A DNA stretch of 62,458 nucleotides from IMG/VR virus record IMGVR_UViG_3300035212_001239, positions 1 to 62,458 of that record. One strand, 5' to 3'. Under the pieces are notes generated by a model. That model searched no databases. It had not been told where the DNA came from and worked only from the letters and a program-made list of their open reading frames with translations. Positions within the stretch are counted from its first letter, which is position 1, and the number at the start of each line of letters is the position of its first letter. A program made the position numbers and the translations under genes. The stretch comes from a virus. Lineage: Duplodnaviria; Caudoviricetes. Shown here one piece after another: positions 2,844-28,180 of this stretch.

Positions 2844-2853
2844 GAGTCGCAAC

Positions 2854-4170: not shown

Positions 4171-4172
4171 GA

Positions 4173-6079: not shown

Positions 6080-6083
6080 GACT

Positions 6084-11075: not shown

Positions 11076-11116
11076 CAGCGGCAGAAATCTGGTCGATTAA
11101 CCAATAATCGTCCAGT

Positions 11117-11134
11117 TAATTGACCGATCAATTA
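11117..11134. promoter_or_regulatory. AT-rich imperfect palindrome upstream of the glycosyltransferase genes
   Basis: TAATTGACCGATCAATTA; its first 12 bp recur exactly at 28695-28706. Confidence 0.45.
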
Positions 11135-12334: not shown

Positions 12335-12339
12335 GAGGA

Positions 12340-13203
12340 TCAGGCGTCTTCGACCCAGTGCGGCCCGTCGGCGGCGGTCCACTTCAGCGTCCAAGTGTCG
12401 TTGCCGGTCGGGAACGGTAGGAAGCTGGCGACCGAGGAGACCGCGGCAACCGGGTCGCACCCTGGGCAATCGCAGCTCGAAGGCACGGTCGGCACCTGTT
12501 CGACAACGATCATCCCGGAACCGGTCAGCGTCTTGAAGTTGCGGATCTCGGCACCGGTGCCGGAAACGGCGATCGACTCGATGCCGATCAGCTCCAGAGA
12601 AGCCGCTCGTTCAAGGTGGCCACGTTTGGCGAAAGAGCGATCCGCTTCAGCGCGAACCTCCCATTGCTCCAGCTCGGCGTTCCACACTTGGCTGGAGTCT
12701 TCCGAACCGCCCTTGATGCCGTGCAGGTTGCCCTGATCATCGGCGATGACGGCGTGATGGAACGGCAGTGGTTCACCGAGAACCGGACGAGCGTTGATTC
12801 CGGCGGGCTTCCACCACTGGTGCCAGAGTGTCGCGATCTTGATCGGGACCGAGGCCACGATGAACGCCTTGCCGTCCACGATCTTGATGAACCCGGAGCC
12901 CGCCAGCTTGGCGAGCTTCGCGCCGATGCGGCCGAGGAGCGTGACACCCTCGCCGTTCCGATCGTTGATCGGGTCGGTGAAGCCGTTGGGCAGCGTGTAA
13001 CCACAGCTCGCGGTGGACCGCAGCGCGTTGCTGTCGGCGCAGCGGGACACCGGGCTGCCGGTGACGTTCGCCGGGGTCGTGCCGAGGCACTCGTCCGTCG
13101 CGCAAAGCGTGGTGTCCGCGCAGGCTTGCGACAGCGCGGAGAGGGTCGGCAGCTCCGGGTTTACCGGAGCCACCGCTGCGGGCGTGGTGCAGTTGCAGCT
13201 CAT
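12340..13203 (-). CDS. Cys-rich virion (tail-associated) protein
   Basis: 287 aa, 10 Cys (MSCNC..., SCDCPGC); lies in the structural operon. Confidence 0.65.
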   Translation of the reverse strand: MSCNCTTPAAVAPVNPELPTLSALSQACADTTLCATDECLGTTPANVTGSPVSRCADSNALRSTASCGYTLPNGFTDPINDRNGEGVTLLGRIGAKLAKLAGSGFIKIVDGKAFIVASVPIKIATLWHQWWKPAGINARPVLGEPLPFHHAVIADDQGNLHGIKGGSEDSSQVWNAELEQWEVRAEADRSFAKRGHLERAASLELIGIESIAVSGTGAEIRNFKTLTGSGMIVVEQVPTVPSSCDCPGCDPVAAVSSVASFLPFPTGNDTWTLKWTAADGPHWVEDA

Positions 13204-13212
13204 GAGGTGGGA

Positions 13213-14919
13213 TTATTGAAGGCGAATCCAAGTGCCGGTGCCTGCGGTGCTGACGCACTGCCAAGCGTATGTGGTGTCAGCGGCCACGAGGGTCAGCGCG
13301 GCTCCGTTGATCGCGCCACCACCGGAGACGGTGACCGTGAAAGATGTGGAGCCGATAGCTTCGGTGGAATGGAGCCGGACGATCTGACCGGCGCGGCTGT
13401 TGGCCGCAGTCGGGAGGACGAACGAGCCATTGGCCAAAGCGCCTGCGGGAGTCAGGTAGTGGGTCTGGTCGGTGTAGCGATCCGCCGGGATGGTGAACCC
13501 TGTGGTGGGTGTGAATGGGACGATCGCCGTTTCGAGTCCGATGGTCCCGGAGGCGTTAGGGAACTCCAGGTCGCGGCTCGCGGTGATGTTGGCCACCAGG
13601 AAGTTCCCGGAGTACACCTGCCCCGACTTGGAGATCGACAAGCCCAAAGAGACCGACAGCCCCCCGAGCGCGTTGTAGAGCGGGACCTTGTTCTCGTCCG
13701 CAGTATCGAAACCTCCCGCGGAAGCATCCAGAATTGCCGCCGACAGCGTCGCCGCAGGGCGGAACTTCCACGTCAGGTTGTTGGTGCTGCCGTCCGGGTT
13801 GGTCGCTCCGTAATTGTCCGGGCGGATCGTGGTTGGGGAACTCTCGACATCAGTGCCTGCGATCAGCTCCATGCCGTAGGCAATGCCAGAGACATCCACG
13901 ATCTCGAAACGTCCGATGTCGTGGGTCGTGGTGACCGCGAGGCCGTCGAGCTTGGTCGTCCCGCCGCCGGTGAGTCCCGTGATAGCCGGGTCGTGACGGG
14001 CCGAGTTCAGGACGGTCGTGATCTCGCGCCAAGTGTTCGGCGAGGTATCGATCGCTTCCCAAACGCGGGGACCGAACTGGGCGTGTTGGCCGATCCGTTG
14101 AGCGACCGTGCCGATCGAAGTTGCAAGACCGGTTTGCGTGGCGGTGCTGGAACCGTCAGGGGTGACCCCGGTTGCGGTGCCGTTGGCGATCGCCAGGTTC
14201 AGTGTGCCGTCGTTGGCCGCTTCGACGAGCCGGGTCAGCGCGAAGTCCGCGCCGATGTTGTCCGCCTCAAACCGGGCCGCGACGGCTGCGTTGCCCGAGA
14301 GCGCGGCAACCGCCTTGGCAGCAACTGCCGAAGGGATGTCCCCGGCGTCCACATTGAAGGAGATGGCCAGAGGTGAGCCAGTCAGGCCCGCATTGGTGAC
14401 CGTGAGGGTCATCGAGCCGCCGGTGGCAACCGTGCCAATGACCGTCTGGGTCGTGATTTGCTTGCGCCCAGCGGTGCCATTGGATGGCGCTGCGGCGAGT
14501 TCGATCACATCCCAGGTGTTCAAGTCGTCCTGAACCTCGTCGATGTTGGTTTGCAGCGCGGTGTCGGCTGCGGTGCGGGCCGCGATCTCGTCGTCGAGCG
14601 CGTCGCGAAGCACCTCGCAGCAGGCGATGGCCGAAACATCGGTCACGTCGCACACGTTGAGCACGGTAGCCGCACCATCGAGGTCGTCGGCTTCATACTC
14701 GAAGGTGTAGGAGGTGCCTTCCACCACGCATCCGCCGGACACGAGGTTGACCCGAGTGATCGGGTTCTGCGCAATCCCATCCACGAACTCGGGGAACGCG
14801 GGGTTTGCGACTTGATTGAGGAAAAGCCGGACCTCGTCACCGGCCGCGATTTCCGCGCCTCCCGGTGAAACGAAAAGGGCTCCGGCGACTTGGAAATTGC
14901 GAAGTGTTTTCTTGGCCAC
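13213..14919 (-). CDS. Fibre/decoration-type virion protein
   Basis: 568 aa, Thr/Gly/Ala-rich beta segments, short coiled coil (DEIAARTAADTALQ); directly downstream of the capsid gene. Confidence 0.6.
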   Translation of the reverse strand: MAKKTLRNFQVAGALFVSPGGAEIAAGDEVRLFLNQVANPAFPEFVDGIAQNPITRVNLVSGGCVVEGTSYTFEYEADDLDGAATVLNVCDVTDVSAIACCEVLRDALDDEIAARTAADTALQTNIDEVQDDLNTWDVIELAAAPSNGTAGRKQITTQTVIGTVATGGSMTLTVTNAGLTGSPLAISFNVDAGDIPSAVAAKAVAALSGNAAVAARFEADNIGADFALTRLVEAANDGTLNLAIANGTATGVTPDGSSTATQTGLATSIGTVAQRIGQHAQFGPRVWEAIDTSPNTWREITTVLNSARHDPAITGLTGGGTTKLDGLAVTTTHDIGRFEIVDVSGIAYGMELIAGTDVESSPTTIRPDNYGATNPDGSTNNLTWKFRPAATLSAAILDASAGGFDTADENKVPLYNALGGLSVSLGLSISKSGQVYSGNFLVANITASRDLEFPNASGTIGLETAIVPFTPTTGFTIPADRYTDQTHYLTPAGALANGSFVLPTAANSRAGQIVRLHSTEAIGSTSFTVTVSGGGAINGAALTLVAADTTYAWQCVSTAGTGTWIRLQ

Positions 14920-14936
14920 GGCTTTGAAAGGGGAAG

Positions 14937-14963
14937 GGGGCGGGGTCGCTTGGACCCCGCCCC
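14937..14963 (-). terminator. Hairpin after the capsid gene (probably leaky terminator)
   Basis: 11-bp stem GGGGCGGGGTC/GACCCCGCCCC followed by a pyrimidine run on the minus strand. Confidence 0.55.
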
Positions 14964-14986
14964 GGTTGATGGTTCAGACCATCCGA

Positions 14987-16816
14987 TTAGGACAGGTCGC
15001 GGATGTCTACGGTCGCCACGGTGCAGGTGCCGAGCGTGTCGCCGACCGCAGCACTGATGGTGACGGTGAACCGATCCGCAGTCCCGGAGACGGCTTCGGT
15101 GAAGCCAGCGAGGATCGGAACGGTGATGTTCTTCGGAGCGTCGTCGCCAGCGTCCCACGCCAGGACACCGGTGGTGTCGAGGAAGTCGGAGTCGTTGGTG
15201 GTGACGTGAGCCGAGGTCCAGGTGACCTGAGCCGCCGCGCTGGTGTCGCCGGTGCGGGTGACCCGCAGGACGATGTTGTAGGCGTCGCCGAGGAACACCG
15301 AGTCGATGCTGCCGCAGGGCTCCAAGTTGAGGACTGCGGAGGTCGAGCTAGGCTCGACGCACTCGCCCTCATCGCCGGGAACCTTGCCGCACTGGGCGCA
15401 CTCGGCGGTCTGGCAACCGGTGTCGTCGTGGCAAGCGTCGAAACGCTCTGGGTTGGCCGGAGTGTTCGGACCCGCAGCGTAGTTGCGAGGAGCGACTTCA
15501 ATGGCGTAGCCAGCGCGGCGACCGTGACGGTAGGCGATGAAGCCGGAGAACTCCGGGTAGATCGACTTGAACCGGAACTCGTGGCGAGCGACGAGCTTGA
15601 ACTTGTCGTTGAAGTCGTTGCAACCGAGGTGAGCGCCGTCAATGACCTTGACCTGATAGTTCACGCCTTCGTTGGCACCGCCCATCGGCTTAAGCGGCTT
15701 CATCAAGCCATATCGCTTGAAGGAGCGCGGGTCGATGTGCGGCATGAGGGTGCACATGTCGTAGCTCACGCCATCGACGGTGATCTCGTCCTGACGATAC
15801 TGGTGGTTCACACCGGTCACGATGCCACCTTCTTCGTCCTGCTTGTTGATCCATGGGTAGACCCGGACGAAGTTGTAGACTGGGTTGCCGGACGCAATGG
15901 CGGTCTGCACGAAGTAGCCTCGGATCGGCTCATCGGTGAAGTAGCAGCGGATGCCACCGTAATCGGCGAACTGGCGTCCGCGCATGACACTCTCTTCGTC
16001 CTTGAAGACCTCGGTGTTGTAGGTGGTGCCGGTGGGGTTGCGGGCGATCTGGTCGGCTTTGACCGCGTCCAACCAGTCATCCGTCGGCATTTCGACTTCG
16101 AGCTTCCAAGCCTCGCCGACTTCCATGCCGCGGCCCTTCATTTCGGCCTTGATGTGGTCCTTGTAGTCCTGGAGGAAGTGGATCGAGATGCGTTTGGTAG
16201 GAGGAGCCTGCCAGCCACCGGTGGTGACGTTGAACTGGTTGGCACCGAGCACCGAGGCGTTCGACTCCGACTTCTGGATGACGAGGTTCAGCAGGTTGTC
16301 GCTGAAGTTGTCCAAGCCCCACATGGAGAACTGGTTCTTAAACCCAGTGAAGAAACCAGCGATGTGCTCCTTACCGAGGCCGTCGAGTTCGCGGGCGCAC
16401 TTGATCGGGGTGGTGAGATCGAGGCCGTAGTCAACCGTGCCGCGGCGGCGGAAGCCCTGGGCGAAGTCGATCTCGCACTGCCCGTGGCAGGCGTTGTCGG
16501 CGATGTCGTTGATCTGGGCGCTGAAGAGACCGGACGCGCCGTTCTCCTTGCGACCACGCATCTCACCGGCGACCAAGGACCCACGAGGGCTCCCCTGCGC
16601 CGTGTAAGTAAGTTCGTTGTATGCACGGGAAGCCTGGCGGGCCTCACCGTAGATGATGGTGTCGTTGTTGTCGTGGCGATCGACGACCCCACCGTCGGGG
16701 ATCATGCGGAGGGCCATGCGATCGGATTTCACGATCTTTTCACGGACGATGTCCGTCACGATGTCGGCCTCTTCGTGGAGGGCGGCTTTGATTTTGTCAG
16801 GATTGCAGGTGCTCAT
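14987..16816 (-). CDS. Major capsid protein with C-terminal Calx-beta domain
   Basis: Follows portal and scaffold, has a long leader and downstream terminator; C-terminus VTRTGDTSAAAQVTW..DF..TTGVLAWDAGD..KNITVPIL..FTVTIS matches the Calx-beta pattern; 14 Cys. Confidence 0.72.
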   Translation of the reverse strand: MSTCNPDKIKAALHEEADIVTDIVREKIVKSDRMALRMIPDGGVVDRHDNNDTIIYGEARQASRAYNELTYTAQGSPRGSLVAGEMRGRKENGASGLFSAQINDIADNACHGQCEIDFAQGFRRRGTVDYGLDLTTPIKCARELDGLGKEHIAGFFTGFKNQFSMWGLDNFSDNLLNLVIQKSESNASVLGANQFNVTTGGWQAPPTKRISIHFLQDYKDHIKAEMKGRGMEVGEAWKLEVEMPTDDWLDAVKADQIARNPTGTTYNTEVFKDEESVMRGRQFADYGGIRCYFTDEPIRGYFVQTAIASGNPVYNFVRVYPWINKQDEEGGIVTGVNHQYRQDEITVDGVSYDMCTLMPHIDPRSFKRYGLMKPLKPMGGANEGVNYQVKVIDGAHLGCNDFNDKFKLVARHEFRFKSIYPEFSGFIAYRHGRRAGYAIEVAPRNYAAGPNTPANPERFDACHDDTGCQTAECAQCGKVPGDEGECVEPSSTSAVLNLEPCGSIDSVFLGDAYNIVLRVTRTGDTSAAAQVTWTSAHVTTNDSDFLDTTGVLAWDAGDDAPKNITVPILAGFTEAVSGTADRFTVTISAAVGDTLGTCTVATVDIRDLS

Positions 16817-17026
16817 AGAGGTGTGTTGCTGATGCTGGAACGAAGGACACGAATGTCCGGCTTCCCCAAACGATCAGCGAGCCACCAAAGATCCACTCTG
16901 CTTGGTCCTGCAATGGCGGGGCACCACGTCCGCCGGTAGGTTGCTGCAAGAATTGAGAGCTGCGGGTTGGGAAACCCGCTAGGCTGCGAAGATGCAGCCA
17001 CAAAGCGGGTTTCCCGTCAAGCCCGT

Positions 17027-18340
17027 TTACGTATCGTCGTATCTGTCGCCGAACAGCTCGGTGAGAACCGAGTTCCTGCGAGCGCCCGCCACGACAGGCT
17101 TTTTGTCGGGAGCCGGAGCCGGTTTGGGAGACCGAACCCGGCGCATGGCGTCGAACTCGTCTTCGTCGGCCTTGTTCTCCTGTTCGTATTTCGCCAGTTT
17201 CTTGACGACATCGGCAAAGACAGCCCGAGTTGCCAGTCCTTGAACCAGCAGGGGGAGTAGCTTTCTGCGCTTCTCTGCCACGAGCTTCTGGCGATCGGCG
17301 TAGAATGTCTTCAGATCGGTACCATTGGCTTTGAGCTTGTCGGCTTCTTCCGGCGTCAGCGCCCTGGGGCCGAGGATGACTTCCAGCACGTCGGCCTTGG
17401 CTTTTTCCACCCGGCGGCGGGCTTCCGGCGTTTCCTTGACCATGCGGGCCACGACCGACGAAACGCTGTGCGGGTCAGCGGCGATCACGTCATCCGGGAG
17501 ATCCCCGATGGCATCGAGAACCGGCTGGAACTCGGCCACGGCGGTTTGATATTCGCGGGTGCCGACGGCGAGCTGTCCGGTTTTCGATCGGGACTTGAGC
17601 CCTTCAGCCAGTTCGATCGCCTTGCGGGTTTCCGGGACGGCCCGCTCGATGACCGCCAGAGCCTTGTCGGCGATGATGTCGGCTTTGGCTTGCTCGGTGT
17701 AATCGAGATCCTCGTAATCGTCCTCGAAACCGCCGACTTCCTTGATGATCTGCTTGCGGAGTCCTGCGATGGCGGCGTCAAACTCCTCCCCTTCGAGCGG
17801 GTCGGCGTCCATGAAGCTGTTGATGTAGACCCCGAAATTGTCGCGGAAAACCTTCGGATCGCGGACGCCGAGCATCGCGGCTCCGCGCTTCACGTCGTTG
17901 AGGACCTTGTCGCGCAGCGTCTTGACCTCCGGGAAGTCCCTGGGATCGACCTGCACCGACTCGATCTCCTCGCGGCGGGCCTTCTCGGTCTCCAGATCAG
18001 CCTTGAGCCGGTCAAGCTCCAGCTCGTATTCGGTGACCTTGGCTTCGGCGAGCTTGGCGCGGCGGCCATTCTCCTTGGCCATCTTGCGAGCGACGGTCTC
18101 GTTCTCCGGTTCCGGCTCGGCATCGGCTTCCGCGGGCTTCTTGACCACCGGGGCCTCGTAGTCCTCCTCGGAGTCGTCATCTTGGACCGGGGGGTCCTGC
18201 ACCGGCGGCGGGGCGTCGTCACCCGGCTCGTCCTGCACCGGCGGCGGGGCGTCGTCACCCGGCTCGTCGCCGAACAAGGCGCTTATGTTCTTCTCGTGAC
18301 GGGCTTCGTGCCCAGGTTCGATATTTTCGATGGGTGGCAT
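17027..18340 (-). CDS. Putative capsid scaffolding protein
   Basis: Acidic N-terminus with duplicated DEPGDDAPPPVQ, coiled coils; located between portal and capsid genes. Confidence 0.65.
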   Translation of the reverse strand: MPPIENIEPGHEARHEKNISALFGDEPGDDAPPPVQDEPGDDAPPPVQDPPVQDDDSEEDYEAPVVKKPAEADAEPEPENETVARKMAKENGRRAKLAEAKVTEYELELDRLKADLETEKARREEIESVQVDPRDFPEVKTLRDKVLNDVKRGAAMLGVRDPKVFRDNFGVYINSFMDADPLEGEEFDAAIAGLRKQIIKEVGGFEDDYEDLDYTEQAKADIIADKALAVIERAVPETRKAIELAEGLKSRSKTGQLAVGTREYQTAVAEFQPVLDAIGDLPDDVIAADPHSVSSVVARMVKETPEARRRVEKAKADVLEVILGPRALTPEEADKLKANGTDLKTFYADRQKLVAEKRRKLLPLLVQGLATRAVFADVVKKLAKYEQENKADEDEFDAMRRVRSPKPAPAPDKKPVVAGARRNSVLTELFGDRYDDT

Positions 18341-18341
18341 T

Positions 18342-18623
18342 TCAGGTGGTGGTTGGAGACTTGGCAGACTGCTCGGACTTCATCACGGCGCGACCCTTCG
18401 TGGTGAAAAGGAAGAACGCATCCCGGACAAGCTGGAGAGCCAGCAAGGTCGGGCCGCAGTTGTCGCGGTTCTCCGGCGTGACGTGATCCAACTGGATCTG
18501 CGCCAAAACCAGGTCGATCTCCGGGGCGACGGCGTCGAGCTTCTTGCAGAGGCTCGTATCACCAACGAGTTGTGAAACCCCAGCGGTGATGGGGAGTGCC
18601 GGTCGGCGTGTTAATTGCATCAT
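18342..18623 (-). CDS. Hypothetical protein
   Basis: 93 aa; tiles the gap between portal and scaffold. Confidence 0.6.
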   Translation of the reverse strand: MMQLTRRPALPITAGVSQLVGDTSLCKKLDAVAPEIDLVLAQIQLDHVTPENRDNCGPTLLALQLVRDAFFLFTTKGRAVMKSEQSAKSPTTT

Positions 18624-20911
18624 TGTTGCGCTGATTGTCCAGAGACAGCCTGCGTTTCGATCCGCTTGTTGTCAAGCTGGAGCCTCTGGGACTCCCCGAC
18701 CTCGCGGGCGTATTGACTGCGCTGCGAGAGCTTATTGCGCGCCTCACGGCTCGCCCAGAGACGCTGGGTGTCCTCGATCTTGAGCCCCAGGGCCTGCGCC
18801 TTGAGCTGGAGATCCGCGGTCTTGAGTTCGATCTCGGCCTGCTCCCGAGCCGTGAGCTGGCCTTGCTCGGAACCCAACCGCTCCTCGACCTCCTGCACGA
18901 CCGACTGCGCGGACGCCACGATGTTCTGGTAATCCTTGAGGAACGACTTGGCCTCCGGGTTGGTCAGCGGGTTGCTCATCAGAACCTGAAGATGCTCGCC
19001 GGTGTGCTCGGCCAGACCGGCAAACTGGAGCACGTCGAGCTTGTCCCACGGCCGCATCTGGGCCATCGCGACCATCGCCTGCATGTCCACCAAATGGACC
19101 GGGATGTGATCCTGGTGGATGTCGTCGGGCGCGATCGGGATCGTCTGACCGAGGGCGGCACGGCGCTCGATCGTGGAATACTCGTTTTCGGCGGTGATCT
19201 TCTGGGCGTTTAGGATCGCCTGCGGCACCTTGACTAGATACTCGGCAAGGTCCGGGTCTTGAGTCCGCAGCGCGGTGGCCTGCTGAACCACCAATGGCCG
19301 GGTGGCCGGGGCGTAGTTCATGATGTTGTTCATGAGCCAATCCGCCGTCTCGACCCGCTGCTGGGAATCGCCGTTCCCGATCACCCGTTTGGCCCGGACC
19401 CGGATGTATTGGAACCGGTTGTGCTCGCGTTTCGCGAGTTCCTTGTAGGGGATGTCGTAGCGATCGAGGTAAGCACGGACCCACATCGTCTCGTGATAGC
19501 CTTCGGTGCCGGGCTTCACATCGCCCGCCAGCAGCCGCCAAACCAGCGTCTCCAAGATGGACTCCATGTGGTTGTAGCTCTCTGCCAGCCGGTTCCCGAT
19601 AAGCTGCGAGGAGTTTTCCTGCCGCTCAAGAGCCTGCTGCCTCAGCTCGCCACCGCGGCCGGAGTTCGCCACCGAAGACGATGCGAGGCCAGCAGCGTTC
19701 TGCCGAAGCAGCGAAAACGGGGTCATCAAACCTTGGGAGTTGCCCTTGAACTCCATCTCGGACACGCCTGCGGGGGCATACATGTCCTCGACGATGTTCC
19801 ACCGGGCCACGTCGTCCGGGTTCGCATCCCCGAGCTGGATCTTTGGCTTGGCCCGGATCTTGTCGCCTTCGAGGGTGAGATTGATGAGGTCCTCCAGCTC
19901 CAGTGCCGACGGGTAGATCAGCTCCGCGATGCCCCGGCAGGTGTCGAGGGTCTTCACGCCGCCGATCTCGGAGTCCACGAAGACCATGTGGAGCCAGTCG
20001 GTTGCGCTCGGGTAGGCTTTCTCGACGTAGTCGATGATTCTGGCCGACGCCCTGCGCTGGTTGTCCTCGCGGTCACCTCGCTCGGTGGTTGCGGTGCCGT
20101 CGATGCCATCGGTGAAAAGGGTGCGGCTGACATACTGGTTGCCGGACGGATCGTATTTGACCTCGAAGTAGTCCCATGCGGAGACCGTGGTGGACCGCTC
20201 GGACTTGCCGTCGCGGACAGCCTCGGTCACCTCGAAACCGTGGGAGCTACCCTGATCCTTGCGATTGTCGCGGACCTGCTCCTCCAGAATCTCGATGAGG
20301 TGCTCGACGTTTTCCCGGACGATGTAGCGGCTCTGGCCCTCGCCGATCGCCGCCAGCATGTGCTTCAGATCGTGGATTGAAAGCTCCTTCGGGTCGAAGG
20401 CGTAGGAAACCTGCTCGGCGTCGAGCGGGGTTGCCTTCGGGAAAAACATGTCGGCACGGATTTCGGGAAGCCAGCCGTAACGAGGATTGTTGGTCACCGG
20501 CGTCCCCCCGGCGATCGTGATCTCGCCACCGACTTTCCGCCAGAGATTCGCGAACTTGCCCTTGAAGTGGATGGCACCGCGGTTGATCGCCTCCGAGATG
20601 CGGATGCTGGTCTGGTAGTCCTTCTCGGCGTTGTCGGTGTCCACGATGACCTCGACGAGAGCATTGGTCGTGGTCACCATCGATGTGATCTGCGACTCAA
20701 TCTGGAGCATGTCGCGGTGGGACAAACCGAAGTTGGTGATCTCCGTGCGGCCAAGCTTTTCGGCCTCCTCGTCGGTCATCAACCGCTGCATGTTCGTGAA
20801 CTTGCGGATGATGTCGAGCCGCTCGCGCCGGGTCTTCACGCCATCCCACGCATCGTCCTTGGCGCGGACTAGATCGTCCGCCGTCTCGAAGTATTCAGAT
20901 TTGAATTTCAT
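18620..20911 (-). CDS. Portal protein
   Basis: 763 aa, downstream of TerL, helical with a Gln-rich C-terminal barrel-like extension (DDIHQDHIPVH). Confidence 0.75.
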   Translation of the reverse strand: MKFKSEYFETADDLVRAKDDAWDGVKTRRERLDIIRKFTNMQRLMTDEEAEKLGRTEITNFGLSHRDMLQIESQITSMVTTTNALVEVIVDTDNAEKDYQTSIRISEAINRGAIHFKGKFANLWRKVGGEITIAGGTPVTNNPRYGWLPEIRADMFFPKATPLDAEQVSYAFDPKELSIHDLKHMLAAIGEGQSRYIVRENVEHLIEILEEQVRDNRKDQGSSHGFEVTEAVRDGKSERSTTVSAWDYFEVKYDPSGNQYVSRTLFTDGIDGTATTERGDREDNQRRASARIIDYVEKAYPSATDWLHMVFVDSEIGGVKTLDTCRGIAELIYPSALELEDLINLTLEGDKIRAKPKIQLGDANPDDVARWNIVEDMYAPAGVSEMEFKGNSQGLMTPFSLLRQNAAGLASSSVANSGRGGELRQQALERQENSSQLIGNRLAESYNHMESILETLVWRLLAGDVKPGTEGYHETMWVRAYLDRYDIPYKELAKREHNRFQYIRVRAKRVIGNGDSQQRVETADWLMNNIMNYAPATRPLVVQQATALRTQDPDLAEYLVKVPQAILNAQKITAENEYSTIERRAALGQTIPIAPDDIHQDHIPVHLVDMQAMVAMAQMRPWDKLDVLQFAGLAEHTGEHLQVLMSNPLTNPEAKSFLKDYQNIVASAQSVVQEVEERLGSEQGQLTAREQAEIELKTADLQLKAQALGLKIEDTQRLWASREARNKLSQRSQYAREVGESQRLQLDNKRIETQAVSGQSAQQ

Positions 20912-21642
20912 GTCCAGTGGTTCGCGGTGGCAGCTTGTTCAAAGGTCAGTTCCGGCACGCCCTTTCGGGTGTTCGCCCCATTCATCACCCGCCACAGCCA
21001 ATCACGGGCTTCAGCCTGGGTGTAGCGGGGGCGGTTGCGTAGATCCGCAAGAGCGGCTCCGAAGTGGATGAAGCACTCCGCGCAGCCGGTCGAGGGGTTG
21101 AGATTCGGGTCGAGCCACTTCCGCAGCTCGGTGGCGAGCATGAGCAGGGTGCCGAACTCGTAGGTGTCCAGCGCCAGATACATCTGGAGCATCCCCCAGC
21201 CCTTGCGTCCCCAGACGGCAGGGCCGATCTGCTGGCGGGCGCGGGTGGGCGCGTGCTCGGGAGGAACGGCAGAGCCGGATGCGGCGGTCATCAGGTCGCT
21301 CAGGCGAACCACCTGATACTTCTCGGTGGCCCTGTTGAGCCACTGGATGTTCAGATTGAGCCACAGGTCCAGATCCGAGAACACCAGTCCGTTGAGCTGA
21401 AGCAGCCGAGCCGCTTCGTCGTGGACCGCTTGCCCGCTCGGGCCGTCGGCTTCGATGTGCTGGCCATTGACCAGCAGCGAGACCCGCCAGCCGCCGGTTG
21501 GCTTCCGCCCCGATGGGACGAGAGTTTTGCTGATCTGGTAGCGCACGCCATCGCGCCCGACGACGCTCGCCGCGGTCGCGCTGTAGACCATCGCGGCTGC
21601 TGGAGCCGCTGTCGCAGATTTGTTGCAGGTGTCGCAAGCCAT
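20908..21642 (-). CDS. ERV/ALR-like sulfhydryl oxidase domain protein
   Basis: C-terminal PAVWGRKGWGMLQ...GCAECFIHF...DWLWRVMNGANTRKGVPELTFEQA follows the Erv1/Alr pattern (WG..W..LH, CxxC..HF, W...HN.VN..LGK); extra N-terminal CDTC. Confidence 0.6.
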   Translation of the reverse strand: MACDTCNKSATAAPAAAMVYSATAASVVGRDGVRYQISKTLVPSGRKPTGGWRVSLLVNGQHIEADGPSGQAVHDEAARLLQLNGLVFSDLDLWLNLNIQWLNRATEKYQVVRLSDLMTAASGSAVPPEHAPTRARQQIGPAVWGRKGWGMLQMYLALDTYEFGTLLMLATELRKWLDPNLNPSTGCAECFIHFGAALADLRNRPRYTQAEARDWLWRVMNGANTRKGVPELTFEQAATANHWT

Positions 21643-21643
21643 G

Positions 21644-23698
21644 TCAGACGCGCTTCACTATCCTTTTTTTGCCCAGACCGCGAGACGTAATTTCGTCCCA
21701 CACGCTCCGGCCTCCGTTGGCCGACTTCTGGCCAACGACGCTCTGCCGGAACCCGCGCTTCAGGGCGACGCCGGTCAACCCCATGAGAACGTCCCGGTGG
21801 TCCGGCGAGACCTGCTGCCAGCGGGCCTTGTATTCGCGCTTGCCCTCCGCGACATACTTGCGGTTGACCGTCTGGTAGAGGGTCCGGGAGAGCTGCGTGG
21901 TGGCTGTTTCGATGAAGCTGCCGCCGCGGACCTGCCGGGTGAGGAACAGGTCGGCGGAAAGGAACGCCAGCTCGGTGCAGCGGTTCTTGCAGCACTCGTC
22001 GGAGGTCTTCTTGATGTTCTGGATCATGTGCCCCTCCGGCCCTTGGTTGTAGTCGAAGGCGAGGCAGTTGAACCCCATGATCTTGTTGATCGAGCTGACG
22101 ATGTCCGGCCGCATCGAGAAGTCGTAGCCGAAGTTGGCGAACGGGACATTGTTGGCAAGGCACAGCTCCCGGCACTGGATGGCGATCTGGTCCTCGTAAC
22201 TGATCTCCGCGCCCGCGGTGTAGTCCGAGATGTCCATGCCGCAGGCTTTCATGCGATCCGGCCAATAGTTGTCGTCCCCAGGGAACCATGCCCCTTTGAC
22301 CAGCTTCAGGGACCGGAAGTGCTCCTTGAACACGAAAAGCTCCTGAAGCTCCTGCTTGCCCTCGCCGTCGGTGACGTAGGCTTGCCCGATCTCGGCCCAG
22401 CCGAAGACCGCCTTGTCCCGGCCGCCGAACGCCGGGTCGCAGAATGCCACGCGACCGGTGACCCGGACCATGCTGAAAAACGTGTCCTTGTGCCGGGAGG
22501 CACTCAGCTTGGCGCGGGACAGCACGGAGTTCGTCTCGTCGCCGCGGACGGGGAAGGATCGGACCTGCGAGTAGTAGTCCGGCGATTGCACGCCGTAGTC
22601 GTCGCGCATCCGCTGAAGGTTCTCCATTTTGAAGAGCTTCGGGTAGATGGTCCGATTAGCCAGCACGTTCGGGCTCCGATGGCCGTCGAAACGCAGCGTG
22701 ATTGAGGACTTGGAGCTGTGCCACCACACGTCGAACTCGATGTCGAGGTCGTCGAACGATGACGGGCCGCCGAACAGCCCGACCGGCTGGGTGAGTCGCC
22801 CGCCCATGTCCTCCTCGTCCTTGAAGTTCTGTGAGGTGATGGCGAAGAACTGGTCCTGCGAGACCAGGTTGTTGAGCATGGTCTCGAACGAAGGGTTCTC
22901 GATTTCGTTGACCTCGTCCACGAGCAGGAGCATGACCCCGCGGGTCACGTCCTTGCCGCGGCCTTTGGACCCCTTGAACTTGCCGACGTGCTTGACGTTT
23001 CGCAGGACGATCGTCCCGGCTTTCGGGAGACCCGGCACGAGGTCGAGCTGCCGGTTGGCATATTTCTTTCCCCAGGGGAACAGCCACGTCGCGTCCTCGT
23101 AGCCCTTGCCGGTGTCGTTCGAGTGGTGCTCGCAGAGCTGATCCCACAGCTCCTCCACGTCGCCCCAGACCGTCGAATCGGCGGCGTTGTCGAACGGGTT
23201 GGCAACGAAGACCGCCGAGTATTCGGGGTCGATGATCATGATCGCGAACGCGATGCGGATCGCGCCTGCCGACTTGCCCGAGTTCTGGCTGCCGATCAGG
23301 TGCTCCAGCTTCTTGTTCCCGCCGCCGATGCCCATGCAAAACAGCATCACGGCGTCGGCCAAGGACGGCGTGATGTCGGTGTCCGGGAAAGACAGTTTGA
23401 TAAGCGAGAGCATGTGCCGGAAGTAGGGCTTGCCCCACTTGCTCGACCCACCCCAGTTCGGCCGCTTGGCGTCGAACAGGATCTTCTTCTCGATGCCGAT
23501 TCGGTGCTTCGCCAGCTCCTGCGGCGTCGCATCGATGGGCTCCGGCCCGCCGTATTCCGGCTCGTCGTAGTAGTCGTGGAAATCCAGCAGACGCATCGTG
23601 ATGGCGTCCGCGTCCAACAAAGGGTCGGACCAGTTCAAAAGGTCGTGATTGAGCACGACCCCGGCGAACGGGTCCGACCTTGGAGCTGCTTCGATCAC
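21644..23698 (-). CDS. terL: Terminase large subunit
   Basis: Walker A GSQNSGKS, Walker B LLLVDE, RNase H-like nuclease motifs FCDPAFGGRD and SPDHRD. Confidence 0.88.
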   Translation of the reverse strand: MIEAAPRSDPFAGVVLNHDLLNWSDPLLDADAITMRLLDFHDYYDEPEYGGPEPIDATPQELAKHRIGIEKKILFDAKRPNWGGSSKWGKPYFRHMLSLIKLSFPDTDITPSLADAVMLFCMGIGGGNKKLEHLIGSQNSGKSAGAIRIAFAIMIIDPEYSAVFVANPFDNAADSTVWGDVEELWDQLCEHHSNDTGKGYEDATWLFPWGKKYANRQLDLVPGLPKAGTIVLRNVKHVGKFKGSKGRGKDVTRGVMLLLVDEVNEIENPSFETMLNNLVSQDQFFAITSQNFKDEEDMGGRLTQPVGLFGGPSSFDDLDIEFDVWWHSSKSSITLRFDGHRSPNVLANRTIYPKLFKMENLQRMRDDYGVQSPDYYSQVRSFPVRGDETNSVLSRAKLSASRHKDTFFSMVRVTGRVAFCDPAFGGRDKAVFGWAEIGQAYVTDGEGKQELQELFVFKEHFRSLKLVKGAWFPGDDNYWPDRMKACGMDISDYTAGAEISYEDQIAIQCRELCLANNVPFANFGYDFSMRPDIVSSINKIMGFNCLAFDYNQGPEGHMIQNIKKTSDECCKNRCTELAFLSADLFLTRQVRGGSFIETATTQLSRTLYQTVNRKYVAEGKREYKARWQQVSPDHRDVLMGLTGVALKRGFRQSVVGQKSANGGRSVWDEITSRGLGKKRIVKRV

Positions 23699-26071: not shown

Positions 26072-28180
26072 TCAGCGGATGTTGTTCCGATGCACCGTTC
26101 GGCGGATGGTTTCCAGCGTCACTGCACCGGCGTCGGCACACGTCGTCAAAACCTCGTAGTATCGGTAGTCCATCGACAGGTTCCCGGCGAAACGCTGCGG
26201 CCCGATCACTGTCCCATTGACCAACATCTCAGCATAGATGATGTGCGTTTGACTGGCACTAGCCTTGCGAGTGAACCGGATAGTGAACGGTGTCGCCAGC
26301 AAGTTCAAAACGCCCAAACCAGAATCGAAGATCGAACCGAGTCCGCTGTTTTGAAACATCTGAATCTTGATCCGTTTGGCATTTGCCCCGGTCAGAAAAC
26401 CATTGATCGTCACCTCCTCAATATCGCCAGCCTCCAGCGGCATCGCGCTGTCGAATGTCTTCAGCGTGGCGTCGGTCGTGTTGATCGCGTTTGCAACCGT
26501 CGCATCAAGGGTGCAATCAAATGTGGCAGGGCAAATCCCGAGTAGCGCGGTCCCAGCATCTGGGAACGACCAGTTTACCGCATAGACGCCTTCGGCGTAG
26601 TGATTGCCGCCGACAAACTTGAATTTGCTGTTGGTGGCATCCGCTAGACTTGCGGCACCCGAAAATGTCGCCCAGCCATAGTTCGCCTTGAGCGTCGAGA
26701 CCATCGAAGCACCAAATTCTCGGGTGTTTTCCGGGGTAAGCTCCAATCTCCCCGGTAAGAAATGACGAGAGCCGGTTGCCAGCGCAGCGACATATCCGGC
26801 GTGCTGCTTGCGGTAGTCGGACTCGATGCCGGGGGCGTCGATCCATGCTGCCTTGATCGGGTAGGTCTGCGTGAAATTTTGTCCGCTACTCTGTTCCGGG
26901 GGCGTCTGATAGTAGAACCCAACCTCGCCGCTCGATCCCATGAACGAATCCGATCCACGGAAATAAAACGTGATCTCGCCGACTCCCGCGAGTTCCCAAG
27001 TTAGGTAGTCCCCTTTCCGCCGGAAAATGATCAGGTTGTTCCTGCCTGCTGGCATACAACCAACCGCCGAGTCACTCATCGCGAGTCCCCGGATGTATTG
27101 ATTTGCCGTGCCGTTCGTGGTCAAATCGATCGCTGATCCTCCGGGCGTAAGCGACAGCTTGATCGTGTTAGCAGTAACATCCCGGACGTAATAGACGGTT
27201 CCACCGGCAAGTCCTCCGGGAAGTCCGTCACCCTCGACAATGACGGGTTGATTGGCCGCGAAATAGTGCGTTGTGATCGTTAACGTGTCGGCCCCTGCGG
27301 AACCGGTAAATTTCCGCGTTTCGCTGCGTGGGGGAAGCCACGCGACCACGCTGGATAGATACTGCCGGTTGATCGCCTCGGGGTTTCGGGCGAGCGTGAC
27401 GGAAGTCCCGTTGCTGGTAAGTGGTAACGCTGTTCCGGCCAGCGCATTTGCACGACTGGTGGCCAACTTCACCACGCTGCCGGTCCCACCGTTTCCTGAG
27501 ACGAGGATCGCCCAATAGTCGGTGGCGGCGGCGGTGCCGGAAGGGACCACGGAGCCGCCGATGTTGACGTAGTCGCCGGTGGCGATGGGGGCGGGACTGT
27601 TCGACCCGGCTCCCAGCGTGATCTCGTCCGTCACGTTATCGACGGTCACTGCATACGATGTTTCGTAGATCCCTTGGGAAGCGATTCCGGTCTCGTTAAA
27701 ATTGACGTGCCAGTTTCCGGGTGCGCTGTGAGTCGAAGCGCCGACCAGCGGAGCCGATCCGACCGTAATGGTCAGGCTCGCGTCGATGGTATTTGTCGCG
27801 TGACGGGTCAGCTCGCGGGTGAAGAACCACCCGGCGCTCCAGTCCTGATGATCCTCCGGCGTGGCGTGGGCTGCGAGGTATCCGCCGCCGAGTCGCTGTG
27901 CTCGAAGAGCGCCGTTTGCGACAAGCATCTTCATGTCGGCGGGAGCGGCCCCGTCGTTCTTTTTCCACTTCCACACCGAGCCGTAGAGCGGCATCGTGAC
28001 ACCATCCGTGAGGAAAGTGCCCTCCGGGTAGCGGGTGCGGTCGTCGAAGCGGTCGAAGAATGCGACCCGCTCGGCGCTGGTAACCTCCAATCCGCCCCGA
28101 AACGCCACCGCATCCGTGATGCCCGTGCCGTCGCCGGAGACGCCACCGTGGACAAACCCTTTACCTTGGAGGAAACTCAT
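26072..28180 (-). CDS. Tail fibre / receptor-binding protein
   Basis: 702 aa, beta-rich with two repeats of Y(W/Y)..KL(A/S)....G.A..LT.NGT; distal part lower in GC. Confidence 0.6.
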   Translation of the reverse strand: MSFLQGKGFVHGGVSGDGTGITDAVAFRGGLEVTSAERVAFFDRFDDRTRYPEGTFLTDGVTMPLYGSVWKWKKNDGAAPADMKMLVANGALRAQRLGGGYLAAHATPEDHQDWSAGWFFTRELTRHATNTIDASLTITVGSAPLVGASTHSAPGNWHVNFNETGIASQGIYETSYAVTVDNVTDEITLGAGSNSPAPIATGDYVNIGGSVVPSGTAAATDYWAILVSGNGGTGSVVKLATSRANALAGTALPLTSNGTSVTLARNPEAINRQYLSSVVAWLPPRSETRKFTGSAGADTLTITTHYFAANQPVIVEGDGLPGGLAGGTVYYVRDVTANTIKLSLTPGGSAIDLTTNGTANQYIRGLAMSDSAVGCMPAGRNNLIIFRRKGDYLTWELAGVGEITFYFRGSDSFMGSSGEVGFYYQTPPEQSSGQNFTQTYPIKAAWIDAPGIESDYRKQHAGYVAALATGSRHFLPGRLELTPENTREFGASMVSTLKANYGWATFSGAASLADATNSKFKFVGGNHYAEGVYAVNWSFPDAGTALLGICPATFDCTLDATVANAINTTDATLKTFDSAMPLEAGDIEEVTINGFLTGANAKRIKIQMFQNSGLGSIFDSGLGVLNLLATPFTIRFTRKASASQTHIIYAEMLVNGTVIGPQRFAGNLSMDYRYYEVLTTCADAGAVTLETIRRTVHRNNIR

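What the first reader, a model, noticed from the sequence alone, without database searches (positions are those of the whole stretch)
20908..21642. ERV/ALR-like sulfhydryl oxidase between TerL and portal: candidate phage-encoded disulfide-formation system
Seen: the C-terminal ~105 aa read PAVWGRKGWGMLQ...CAECFIHF...WLWRVMNGANTRKG..TFEQA, the N-terminus has a second CxxC (CDTC), and the gene is tightly coupled to TerL and portal. Known: Erv1/ALR FAD-dependent oxidases use a core CxxC plus a shuttle Cys pair, and poxvirus E10R and other NCLDV homologues form disulfides in virion proteins in the reducing cytoplasm. Inference: this phage may oxidatively fold or cross-link its Cys-rich virion during assembly, which is not a standard feature of tailed phages. 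Caveat: two usually conserved His residues (W..LH, HN.VN) appear as Gln and Met, so FAD binding is uncertain.
Basis: partly seen in the sequence, partly recalled or inferred. Interest (0 to 1): 0.88.

Follow-up and report, generated by a model that had tools for sequence, protein, structure and literature searches.

The report
Phage Erv-type oxidase fused to unknown domain
An uncultivated tailed phage encodes, between its DNA-packaging and portal genes, a protein whose rear half is a divergent relative of the flavin enzymes that make disulfide bonds in eukaryotes and giant viruses, but related phages have inactivated or deleted that half, so its role in building the virus particle is plausible and not shown.

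Summary
ORF 20908..21642(-) encodes 244 aa with CDTC at residues 3-6 and CAEC at 187-190. It starts 1 nt after the upstream stop and overlaps the downstream start by ATGA.

The C-terminal ~110 aa is an Erv/ALR-fold homologue:
- Pfam Evr1_Alr is below threshold for this protein (17.5 bits against 27.6), but matches 22 of 22 relatives.
- The best five hits of a family profile against PDB sequences are Erv1, QSOX and ALR.
- The top 6 of 48,161 chains by VIA-align are Erv enzymes, Z 9.3-8.0.
- A homodimer is predicted, score 0.91 against controls of 0.00.

Both adenine-stacking His are replaced (Q153, M220).

New here: the N-terminal ~125 aa is a separate domain with no PDB match, and it is the constant part. 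Of 153 family sequences, 82 keep the Erv CxxC, 40 have lost it and 27 are N-domain only. Most N-domain-only proteins still carry the N-terminal CxxC.

The virion module is not Cys-rich overall: 1.11% Cys against 1.57% in early genes, and relatives lacking a working Erv domain have similar levels. Only three Cys in the 609-aa putative capsid protein track the intact Erv state.

This scan has noted phage Erv genes before on other DNA. Five literature searches found none in print.

The parts
20908..21642 (-). Whole gene: 244-aa two-domain protein (P0001)
   Evidence: ORF list and translation. 28 homologues at E<=1e-3 in the 5.8-billion-protein set. 220 cluster representatives at E<=1e-3 in the 1.84-billion set.
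21592..21642 (-). N-terminal tail, residues 1-17, carrying CDTC (C3, C6; 21625..21636). Candidate shuttle or other redox/metal motif.
   Evidence: pLDDT is under 50 for residues 1-15. CDTC confirmed. The aligned CxxC is present in 34 of 82 intact, 20 of 40 CxxC-lost and 24 of 27 N-only family members. The remainder mostly lack any residue aligned there.
21268..21591 (-). N-terminal domain, residues 18-125: beta strands plus three helices, invariant W52, N84, D92, W94, L97, N98, W101. No recognisable fold relative.
   Evidence: Modelled alone: pLDDT 83.8, pTM 0.76. VIA-align best Z 4.2, 0 of 48,161 chains at Z>=5. Foldseek PDB best E 1.0. It occurs as a stand-alone 125-128-aa protein in the same slot in L008, L009, L031 and L034.
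20911..21237 (-). Erv/ALR-fold domain, residues 136-244: helices 141-156, 163-177, 188-203, 209-227 and a short fifth helix 234-241. Active-site CAEC at 21073..21084.
   Evidence: Pfam PF04777 E 0.0054 for this protein, and 22 of 22 relatives at E<=0.1, best 2.7e-8. Family profile against PDB: AtErv1 E 0.0046, then QSOX and ALR, with R596 and pB119L further down the list. All 21 rows listed at Foldseek PDB ranks 1-22 are Erv/ALR. The BFVD list is dominated from the top by NCLDV sulfhydryl oxidases. The VIA top 6 are Erv enzymes, Z 9.3-8.0. Predicted homodimer, ipSAE 0.91 against 0.00.
21644..23698 (-). Upstream 684-aa protein, probable large terminase
   Evidence: No Pfam, PHROG or PDB-sequence hit. 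ESM Atlas neighbours are terminase clusters, score 0.98. Its stop lies 1 nt before the ATG of the gene. Syntenic in 9 of 9 loci.
18620..20911 (-). Downstream 763-aa protein, probable portal
   Evidence: ESM Atlas: 14 of 30 hits fall in a set carrying SU10_portal, which is on 13% of members in the row shown. ATGA overlap with the gene. Syntenic in 9 of 9 loci. It has 1 Cys.
14987..16816 (-). 609-aa protein with 14 Cys. Putative major capsid protein by position (not shown), with a C-terminal Calx-beta domain. Candidate substrate.
   Evidence: Calx-beta: PDB profile hit at E 4.1e-5 and Pfam in 3 of 6 members. Six Cys columns (4, 110, 140, 291, 473, 476) are kept in every row that covers them. Cys399, 468 and 486 are kept in all the closer loci and partly lost in the most distant ones. 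Cys114, 462 and 501 are present in 6 of 6 Erv-intact loci and in 0 of 8 loci with a dead, absent or unrecognisable Erv domain.

Best explanation
The gene encodes a late, cytoplasmic, two-domain protein of a tailed-phage lineage that has no cultured relative. The constant part is a ~110-aa N-terminal domain of unknown fold, preceded by a flexible tail bearing CxxC. That part occupies the slot between the terminase-like and portal-like genes in every relative examined, so it probably has an assembly-linked role of its own (inferred). In this phage it is fused to an intact but divergent Erv-type domain. That domain most likely forms a homodimer, binds a flavin and uses Cys187/Cys190 to oxidise thiols to disulfides, passing the electrons to O2 or another acceptor (inferred from family knowledge). 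The N-terminal CxxC may relay electrons from the substrate, as the distal pair does in Erv1. The most likely substrates are a few Cys in particular virion proteins, first of all the 609-aa putative capsid protein, not a generally Cys-rich particle. Shown here: homology, fold, conservation pattern, synteny and the predicted dimer. Not shown: FAD binding, activity and the substrate.
For: Erv homology rests on four kinds of search. (1) Pfam PF04777 matches 22 of 22 aligned relatives, best E 2.7e-8. (2) The five best of 14 hits of the family profile against PDB sequences are Erv1, QSOX and ALR. (3) All 21 rows listed at Foldseek PDB ranks 1-22 are Erv/ALR, and the BFVD list is dominated from the top by giant-virus sulfhydryl oxidases. 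(4) The VIA-align top 6 of 48,161 chains are pB119L, Erv1 (two entries), R596 (two entries) and Erv2p, Z 9.3-8.0 over 96-104 residues.

Catalytic and flavin-contact residues are conserved in the family members that keep the CxxC. C187 and C190 are invariant in 22 of 22. Among the 82 family sequences with an intact CxxC, W149 is kept in 81, N221 in 77, N224 in 65, W243 in 79, and position 194 is aromatic in 72. Among the 40 that lost the CxxC, the same positions decay: W149 in 19, N221 in 13, N224 in 5. Scaffold residues stay: W215 in 33 and W243 in 35. This is the pattern expected if the intact forms are kept for cofactor chemistry.

Q153 and M220 are each conserved in at least 90% of the close relatives. 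Relatives with the canonical HNxVNxRLGK motif belong to the same family: 52 of 82 have His at position 220.

The Erv domain is predicted to homodimerise through helices 1 and 2: ipSAE 0.92, 0.91 and 0.91 against a best control of 0.00, partner pLDDT at least 92, and at least 92% of contacts shared between runs. In the tool's calibration the mark was reached by 20 of 30 solved pairs and 1 of 23 single chains. A FAD rode along unscored, and my own alignment was used.

The gene is translationally coupled within the packaging/head operon, and the gene order is conserved in 9 of 9 loci. In the 609-aa protein, Cys114, 462 and 501 are present in 6 of 6 Erv-intact loci and 0 of 8 others, and the Erv state changes at least twice on that protein's tree.
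Against: The window's own protein scores below Pfam's gathering cut-off (17.5 against 27.6 bits).

Both His that stack on the FAD adenine are replaced by Gln and Met. The passages seen call these residues hallmark and invariable. Only 6 of 82 intact family members have His at both positions.

Forty of 122 two-domain relatives have lost the CxxC and 27 sequences lack the domain. Phages L006, L008 and L009, with the same gene order, do without it. No other PF04777 match was found in their contigs, which are 57%, 84% and 28% complete.

The late module is not Cys-enriched: 1.11% against 1.57% in the early genes. Erv-less relatives have 1.13-1.24%, including an equally Cys-rich 250-287-aa protein.

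The N-terminal CxxC persists without any Erv domain (24 of 27), so it has some other role at least in part.

The Cys co-variation rests on at most two independent events.

No thioredoxin-fold partner was found by Pfam among the window proteins scanned.

The dimer prediction may reflect likeness to solved Erv dimers and is not independent evidence.
Confidence: 0.5

Rival explanations
1. Pseudo-enzyme or structural module. The Erv-fold domain in this phage no longer binds FAD or oxidises thiols. It serves as a dimerisation or scaffold module for the N-terminal domain, as the psi-Erv domains of QSOX and baculovirus oxidases serve a non-catalytic role. The CxxC may be retained as a structural disulfide or metal site, or because decay has only begun.
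For: Both adenine-stacking His are replaced. Forty of 122 two-domain relatives keep the helical domain after losing the CxxC, which shows that the fold is useful without catalysis. Non-catalytic psi-Erv domains are documented in QSOX and baculovirus (passages seen). The dimer prediction needs only the fold. There is no Cys enrichment of the late module.
Against: In the 82 sequences with an intact CxxC, the flavin-contact positions W149, N221, N224, an aromatic at 194, and W243 are conserved. In the sequences that lost the CxxC these positions have decayed. C187 and C190 are invariant across relatives down to 37% identity. Q153 and M220 are themselves conserved and not drifting.
Confidence: 0.3
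2. An active thiol oxidase whose target is not the virion. It might oxidise host thiol pools or a host redox protein, regulate the terminase or portal through a redox switch, or act on the N-terminal CxxC of its own N-domain.
For: The late module is not Cys-rich, and the portal, the scaffold-like protein and the giant protein have 1, 0 and 0 Cys. The terminase-like protein has 10 Cys, and five of those positions are conserved in all nine loci. The N-terminal CxxC belongs to the N-domain and not to the Erv domain.
Against: The gene sits inside the head-assembly operon and is translationally coupled to it. Three Cys of the 609-aa protein follow the Erv state. Nothing in the calls points to a host target.
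Confidence: 0.12
3. Chance resemblance: a generic helical bundle with a CxxC and no relation to Erv.
For: The single-sequence Pfam hit is below threshold. Foldseek E-values are only 0.017 or weaker. The tool warns that for helical bundles a VIA Z under about 13 can reflect a common arrangement.
Against: Sequence profiles and fold searches independently rank Erv enzymes first. Family members carry the canonical WLxxxHNxVNxRLGK motif. One relative carries a precomputed PF04777 annotation.
Confidence: 0.04

Closest known systems
Yeast Erv1 / human ALR (mitochondrial FAD-linked sulfhydryl oxidases; PDB 3w4y, 4e0i, 3mbg, 3o55)
   Same: Both have a four-helix bundle plus a short fifth helix. Both carry a CxxC at the start of helix 3 followed by His-Phe, a helix-1 Trp, two Asn in helix 4 and a C-terminal Trp. 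Both have a second CxxC on a disordered N-terminal segment and a homodimer (predicted here).; family description seen in passages.
   Different: The helix-1 His is Gln and the helix-4 His is Met. There is no CX16C structural disulfide (the protein has only 4 Cys). A folded ~110-aa domain of unknown fold lies between the distal CxxC and the Erv domain. The gene is encoded by a tailed phage. The distal CxxC also occurs in relatives that have no Erv domain.
ASFV pB119L (PDB 3gwl) and mimivirus R596 (3gwn, 3td7): Erv oxidases of nucleocytoplasmic large DNA viruses
   Same: These are the best structural matches (Z 9.3 and 8.1). Both are virus-encoded. R596 also fuses the Erv domain to a domain of novel fold and uses an unusual shuttle pair (passages seen).
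   Different: Their hosts are eukaryotes. R596's extra domain is C-terminal and helical, whereas here it is N-terminal and mixed alpha/beta. Sequence identity in the fold alignments is only 14-17%. A virion-morphogenesis role is established for those viruses (established knowledge, recalled) and not shown here.
psi-Erv domains of QSOX and baculovirus Ac92/P33
   Same: Relatives of this protein (for example L006, P0036, P0042) keep the Erv-like helical domain after losing the CxxC and the flavin-contact residues. This parallels the degenerate Erv domains described in passages seen.
   Different: In QSOX and Ac92 the degenerate domain sits beside an active one in the same chain. Here the active and degenerate forms are orthologues in different phages. 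The window's own copy keeps the CxxC.
Other phage Erv-type genes noted earlier in this scan (e1-6226946, e1-3276224, e1-5326919, e1-5354972 and others)
   Same: They show the same kind of domain in tailed-phage late operons. e1-6226946 is a look-alike of this very gene in another genome (27 of 49 short words shared).
   Different: Several of those cases pair a compact Erv protein with a very Cys-rich tail protein (notes only, not checked here). This phage has no such partner. The domain is fused to a conserved N-terminal domain, and the family shows repeated loss of the active site.

Membership tests
Erv/ALR sulfhydryl oxidases (Pfam PF04777 Evr1_Alr) | Score at or above Pfam's gathering cut-off | tested here: not met
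   The window protein scores 17.5 bits, E 0.0054, against a cut-off of 27.6. However, 22 of 22 aligned relatives match at E<=0.1, best 2.7e-8, and P0029 carries a precomputed PF04777 annotation.
Erv/ALR sulfhydryl oxidases (Pfam PF04777 Evr1_Alr) | Fold: four-helix bundle with a fifth short helix | tested here: met
   The AF2 model has helices 141-156, 163-177, 188-203, 209-227 and 234-241. All 21 rows listed at Foldseek PDB ranks 1-22 are Erv/ALR. The VIA top 6 of 48,161 chains are Erv enzymes, Z 9.3-8.0, rmsd 3.3-4.2 A, 96-104 residues aligned.
Erv/ALR sulfhydryl oxidases (Pfam PF04777 Evr1_Alr) | FAD-proximal CxxC at the start of helix 3, followed by His and an aromatic residue | tested here: met
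   The sequence reads C187-A-E-C190-F-I-H193-F194. C187 and C190 are invariant in 22 of 22 relatives and H193 is kept in at least 90%.
Erv/ALR sulfhydryl oxidases (Pfam PF04777 Evr1_Alr) | Helix-1 Trp and His of the FAD site (W..LH) | tested here: not met
   The Trp is present (W149, invariant), but the His is Gln153. In the family, this position is G in 35, Q in 16, N in 8 and H in 6 of 82 intact members. The feature is as described in the passage seen.
Erv/ALR sulfhydryl oxidases (Pfam PF04777 Evr1_Alr) | Helix-4 His plus two Asn (HNxVN), contacts of the FAD adenine | tested here: not met
   N221 and N224 are present, but the His is Met220. Of 82 intact family members, 52 have His and 24 have Met. 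The feature is as described in passages seen.
Erv/ALR sulfhydryl oxidases (Pfam PF04777 Evr1_Alr) | Homodimer | tested here: inconclusive
   The prediction passes (ipSAE 0.91 against a best control of 0.00; 20 of 30 solved pairs and 1 of 23 single chains reached the mark in calibration). It may pass by likeness to solved Erv dimers, and it is a model, not a measurement.
Erv/ALR sulfhydryl oxidases (Pfam PF04777 Evr1_Alr) | Bound FAD and thiol-oxidase activity | not testable with these tools
   This needs purified protein. The FAD was not scored.
Erv1/ALR-type shuttle architecture | A distal redox-active Cys pair on a flexible segment that serves the Erv active site | tested here: inconclusive
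   C3 and C6 lie in a tail with pLDDT under 50. However, the same CxxC is kept in 24 of 27 relatives without an Erv domain and in 20 of 40 with a dead one.
Poxvirus-type multi-protein cytoplasmic disulfide relay (E10R with thioredoxin-like partners; recalled) | Virus-encoded thioredoxin- or glutaredoxin-fold partner proteins | tested here: inconclusive
   No thioredoxin-fold Pfam family appeared among the 37 window proteins scanned. Many small ORFs were not scanned, and divergent folds would be missed.
psi-Erv (degenerate Erv) domains | Erv fold without the CxxC and without flavin-contact residues | tested here: not met
   The window protein keeps the CxxC, W149, H193, F194, N221, N224 and W243. 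Relatives such as L006, P0036 and P0042 do fit this description.

The most novel reading that the evidence does not exclude
A widespread uncultivated tailed-phage lineage carries a true, active Erv-type flavin thiol oxidase built into a head-assembly protein. The lineage comprises at least 220 protein clusters at 50% identity. If active, this would be the first such enzyme described for a virus of prokaryotes. Evolution has switched it off or deleted it many times, together with particular cysteines of the capsid protein. The lineage would then be a natural on/off series for enzyme-made virion disulfides inside a reducing bacterial cytoplasm.
Probability: 0.3. Interest if true: 0.8.

Novelty: new variant of a known kind. 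Interest (0 to 1): 0.6.

Why it matters
Disulfide cross-links are being found in more and more phage particles. [quoted passage not shown]

In the papers I could search, Erv-type oxidases are described only for eukaryotes, giant viruses and baculo-like viruses. One 2024 paper treats virus-driven disulfide formation in a reducing compartment as a trait that appears to restrict such viruses to eukaryotic hosts (passages seen).

A phage-encoded Erv enzyme would give a direct handle on the open question. This family offers ready-made controls: orthologous phages with an intact, a dead or a deleted oxidase domain.

The case also carries a caution. Here the simple story of a Cys-rich virion that needs an oxidase does not fit the numbers.

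Tried and rejected
What led nowhere or was rejected:

- tblastn of the protein, the terminase-like protein and the 609-aa protein against 50,697 GenBank phage records gave no match. No cultured relative or host could be named.
- PHROGs and Pfam gave nothing for the terminase-like, portal-like and scaffold-like proteins or for nine further structural-module proteins. The 609-aa protein has only a Calx-beta tail. Its capsid role therefore rests on position alone.
- The N-domain fold searches gave nothing usable: VIA best Z 4.2, Foldseek best E 1.0. Its function stays unknown. A positional analogy to lambda gpW, the small gene between terminase and portal, is recalled from memory and untested.
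- A single-sequence PDB search gave only a weak HIT-family hit and a phage adaptor hit (E 0.013 and 0.42). I rejected both as chance because the profile search replaced them with Erv hits.
- I considered and rejected the idea that Erv-less relatives carry a separate Erv gene. There is no PF04777 match at E<=1 in the contigs of L008, L009 and L006, but those contigs are 84%, 28% and 57% complete.
- I tested the idea that the virion is Cys-rich, and it is not supported. That call's greedy gene list took a 163-aa ORF in place of the 287-aa, 10-Cys ORF 12340..13203. Swapping them gives 82 Cys in 6,723 aa, or 1.22% (my arithmetic), still below the early genes.
- The single genome contigs match is a 16.6-kb contig of phage genes in a MAG labelled Candidatus Saccharibacteria. 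I do not take that as a host assignment.
- Trees: the N-domain tree is poorly resolved (12 of 140 branches starred). Its count of 17 changes between intact and not intact is therefore an upper-range figure, and well-supported branches force only 2. P0027, which was counted as 'CxxC lost', is a 196-aa fragment and may be a truncated record.
- I dropped L025 and L030 (partial proteins) from the tree and L007 (identical to L006) from the tables.
- Literature: searches (listings) and passages read mention no Erv-family oxidase in a tailed phage. Subscription journals and supplements were not visible, so this is absence in what I could search and not proof.
- Supplementary files were not opened.

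Full report
**1. The observation**

The minus-strand ORF 20908..21642 encodes 244 aa. All the quoted motifs are present. CDTC is residues 3-6 (21625..21636) and CAEC is residues 187-190 (21073..21084). The two positions where Erv enzymes have His are Gln153 and Met220.

The upstream 684-aa ORF ends in TGA one base before the ATG. The gene's own TGA overlaps the ATG of the downstream 763-aa ORF as ATGA.

The window is a whole IMG/VR virus record of 62,458 bases, rated 100% complete. It is clearly a phage:
- It has a PriCT_2/DUF5906 primase-helicase, a DUF2800 nuclease, a family A DNA polymerase, an SNF2 helicase, an Enc34-type ssDNA-binding protein and a phage-tail-repeat protein.
- It has a giant ORF that runs off both ends of the record and carries an ART-PolyVal domain.

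The structural module has no Pfam or PHROG matches and no tblastn match in 50,697 GenBank phages.

The names 'TerL' and 'portal' rest on language-model look-alikes: terminase clusters at 0.98, and 14 of 30 hits in a set carrying SU10_portal. They also rest on position. I treat them as probable.

**2. The C-terminal domain is an Erv-fold homologue**

On its own the protein hits Pfam Evr1_Alr only weakly (E 0.0054, 17.5 bits, cut-off 27.6). A search of 5.8 billion proteins gave 28 homologues, one of them with a precomputed PF04777 annotation. In an alignment of 22 of them (A1), every member hits PF04777 at E<=0.1, best 2.7e-8.

The profile of A1 against all PDB sequences puts Arabidopsis Erv1 first (E 0.0046), followed by QSOX1 and ALR, with mimivirus R596 and ASFV pB119L further down the list.

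An AlphaFold2 model (mean pLDDT 79.4) shows a disordered tail (1-15), a folded N-domain, a low-confidence linker (125-135) and five helices between 141 and 241.

Fold searches agree:
- All 21 rows listed at Foldseek PDB ranks 1-22 are Erv1, ALR, pB119L, R596 or Erv2p (E from 0.017).
- The BFVD list is dominated from the top by giant-virus sulfhydryl oxidases (E from 0.0021).
- VIA-align against 48,161 representative chains, which does not depend on Foldseek, ranks six Erv entries first: pB119L at Z 9.3, Erv1 at 8.7 and 8.5, R596 at 8.1 twice, and Erv2p at 8.0. Unrelated helical proteins follow from Z 7.5.

Each fold score is modest for a helical bundle. The agreement of the sequence profiles with the fold rankings is what carries the conclusion.

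**3. How Erv-like is the active site?**

Passages I read describe the hallmarks as follows:
- a helix-1 Trp and His;
- the CxxC followed by His-Phe in helix 3;
- a helix-4 His and two Asn;
- the two His stacking in a plane on the FAD adenine;
- a C-terminal Trp that bonds the adenine.

The window protein has W149, C187/C190, H193-F194, N221, N224 and W243. It has Gln for the helix-1 His and Met for the helix-4 His. Both replacements are conserved in at least 90% of the close relatives, so they are a fixed alternative and not drift.

A prediction of the domain (residues 134-244) as two copies with FAD riding along passed:
- ipSAE was 0.92, 0.91 and 0.91 against a best control of 0.00.
- Partner pLDDT was at least 92, and at least 92% of contacts were shared between runs.
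- The interface runs through helices 1 and 2.
- In the tool's calibration 20 of 30 solved pairs and 1 of 23 single chains reached the mark, and that calibration had no ligand and did not use my alignment.

Solved Erv enzymes are homodimers (passage seen). The pass may therefore come from likeness. It shows that the dimer surface looks Erv-like, not that this protein dimerises.

**4. The wider family changes the picture**

An HMM search of A1 against 1.84 billion cluster representatives found 220 proteins at E<=1e-3 and 175 at E<=1e-10. I aligned the best 149 together with P0001, P0027, P0029 and P0030, 153 sequences in all, and classified them:

| Class | Number |
|---|---|
| Erv CxxC kept | 82 |
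| Two-domain, CxxC lost | 40 |
| N-terminal domain only (122-144 aa) | 27 |
| C-terminal fragments | 4 |

Residue counts at the flavin-contact and scaffold positions:

| Position | CxxC intact (of 82) | CxxC lost (of 40) |
|---|---|---|
| W149 | 81 | 19 |
| N221 | 77 | 13 |
| N224 | 65 | 5 |
| W243 | 79 | 35 |
| W215 | 76 | 33 |

Among the intact members, position 220 is His in 52 and Met in 24. Position 153 is Gly in 35, Gln in 16, Asn in 8 and His in 6.

The flavin-contact residues are thus kept together with the CxxC and lost together with it. This is the best indirect evidence that the intact forms, including this one, are still under selection for cofactor chemistry.

The same data show that the lineage can do without the oxidase. 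Close full-length relatives read GDPEVF, GNSAFY or GTSSDF where this protein has GCAECF.

**5. Synteny and the N-terminal domain**

In 9 of 9 loci fetched with the family (8 distinct) the gene order is the same: 163-aa protein, terminase-like, this gene, portal-like, 93-aa, 437-aa acidic scaffold-like, 609-aa, 568-aa, 445-aa.

The occupant of the slot varies:
- In L008 and L009 it is a 128-aa and a 125-aa protein, which is the N-domain alone with its MxCxxC start. L031 and L034 are the same.
- In L006/L007, L022 and L024 it is full length with a dead Erv domain.

No other PF04777 match exists in the contigs of L008, L009 or L006, which are 84%, 28% and 57% complete.

The N-terminal CxxC is aligned in 24 of 27 N-only proteins. 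It therefore cannot be only a shuttle for the Erv site.

Modelled alone, the N-domain is confident (pLDDT 83.8, pTM 0.76) and has no relative among solved structures: VIA best Z 4.2 with none of 48,161 at Z>=5, and Foldseek best E 1.0.

On an N-domain tree of 143 sequences, the state 'intact or not' needs 17 changes by parsimony. The tree is poorly resolved, and well-supported branches force only 2.

**6. Is there a Cys-rich virion to oxidise?**

Overall, no.
- Sixteen late-module ORFs (2854..23698) hold 73 Cys in 6,599 aa, or 1.11%.
- Nineteen early/replication ORFs hold 80 in 5,098 aa, or 1.57%.
- With the 287-aa, 10-Cys ORF in place of the 163-aa ORF picked by the script, the late figure is 1.22% (my arithmetic).
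- The portal-like, scaffold-like and giant proteins have 1, 0 and 0 Cys.

Late modules of relatives have 1.13-1.24% Cys whether the Erv domain is intact, dead or absent.

Individual proteins are moderately rich:
- the 609-aa protein has 14 Cys (2.3%);
- the 445-aa protein has 12;
- the 355-aa protein has 8;
- the 287-aa protein has 10.

The one difference that follows the Erv state is in the 609-aa protein. Six Cys columns are universal, and three more (399, 468, 486) are kept in all the closer loci. Cys114, Cys462 and Cys501 are present in all 6 Erv-intact loci and in none of the 8 loci with a dead, missing or unrecognisable domain. Two loci of unknown state carry Cys114, and one of those (L026) also carries Cys462.

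On that protein's tree the intact loci fall in two places and the state needs 2 changes. The co-variation therefore rests on at most two independent events: suggestive, no more.

Whether the 609-aa protein is the major capsid protein is inferred from its place after a scaffold-like gene. The only domain found is a C-terminal Calx-beta.

**7. What it most likely is and does**

Shown:
- a translationally coupled late gene;
- a conserved N-domain of unknown fold;
- a divergent but intact Erv-fold domain with an invariant CxxC;
- a predicted Erv-like dimer;
- a family with repeated loss of the active site.

Inferred:
- The domain binds a flavin and oxidises thiols.
- It acts during head assembly, with the N-domain placing it there.
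- It acts on a few cysteines of particular virion proteins.

I put this at about 0.5. The main rival, at about 0.3, is that in this clade the domain is already a non-catalytic dimerisation module like psi-Erv. A non-virion target gets about 0.12 and chance similarity about 0.04.

**8. Comparison with what is known, and novelty**

The domain works like Erv1/ALR in design: a distal CxxC on a flexible arm, a FAD-proximal CxxC and a dimer. Its best structural matches are the compact viral enzymes pB119L and R596.

It fails two defining features, the His pair, and Pfam's cut-off. I therefore file it as a divergent Erv-fold homologue and not as a canonical member.

Five full-text searches and the passages I read found no description of an Erv-family oxidase in a tailed phage. 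Papers from 2023-2024 list the family only for eukaryotes, Nucleocytoviricota and baculo-like viruses.

Within this scan the theme is not new. Forty-two notes in at least 38 genomes mention phage Erv genes, and one note (e1-6226946) concerns a look-alike of this very gene.

What this case adds:
- the fusion to a conserved N-domain;
- the size of the family;
- the natural series of intact, dead and deleted forms;
- the finding that a Cys-rich virion is not the explanation here.

**9. Verdict**

The finding is a new variant of a known kind.
- Activity is unproven, with two hallmark residues missing.
- The substrate link is thin.
- The lineage plainly tolerates loss of the enzyme.

Noticed in passing
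window 54447..62441 (-) and 3..2852 (-): A giant ORF runs off both ends of the record: 2,664 aa with 0 Cys, plus a further 950 aa. It carries an ART-PolyVal ADP-ribosyltransferase domain. The record is probably circularly permuted through this gene.
   Followed up: partly
window 10395..11075 (-): A family 25 glycosyltransferase (Pfam E 2.6e-12) sits inside the structural module. An earlier first-reader note (e1-6241159) proposes a virion glycosylation cassette here.
   Followed up: no
window 14987..16816 (-): The 609-aa putative capsid protein ends in a Calx-beta domain (PDB profile E 4.1e-5; Pfam in 3 of 6 homologues). A Cys cluster (468, 473, 476, 486) precedes that domain. It is conserved in all the closer loci, with or without a working Erv domain, and only Cys468 is lost in the three most distant ones. 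It could be a metal site and not disulfides.
   Followed up: partly
window 12340..13203 (-): A 287-aa ORF with 10 Cys (it starts MSCNC and has CDCPGC near the end). ORFs of similar size (248-280 aa) with 7-12 Cys occur at like positions in the Erv-intact, Erv-dead and N-only relatives (homology not tested), so their Cys content does not depend on the oxidase.
   Followed up: partly
L010 (genome contigs record labelled Candidatus Saccharibacteria MAG), 1..16234: The only hit in 185,579 species genomes is a 16.6-kb contig made of the same phage head genes, at 60.5% GC. It is probably a phage contig binned into the MAG. It is not reliable as a host assignment.
   Followed up: no
L020, L027-L029, about 4922..5587 in L020: In a more distant clade the slot between the terminase-like and portal-like genes holds a 221-aa protein with no BLAST match to this gene. 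It has a GGW motif and a C-terminal NQW that recall the family. This may be a further stage of divergence.
   Followed up: no
window 26072..28180 (-) and 30303..31784 (-): A 702-aa protein has weak tail-fibre PHROG matches (E 8.3e-7 to 1.4e-4), and a 493-aa protein carries the phage tail repeat PTR (E 4.9e-26). These are the only recognisable tail parts.
   Followed up: no
window 21644..23698 (-): The terminase-like protein has 10 Cys. Five of those positions (121, 420, 509, 569, 570, including a CC doublet) are conserved in all nine loci compared.
   Followed up: no
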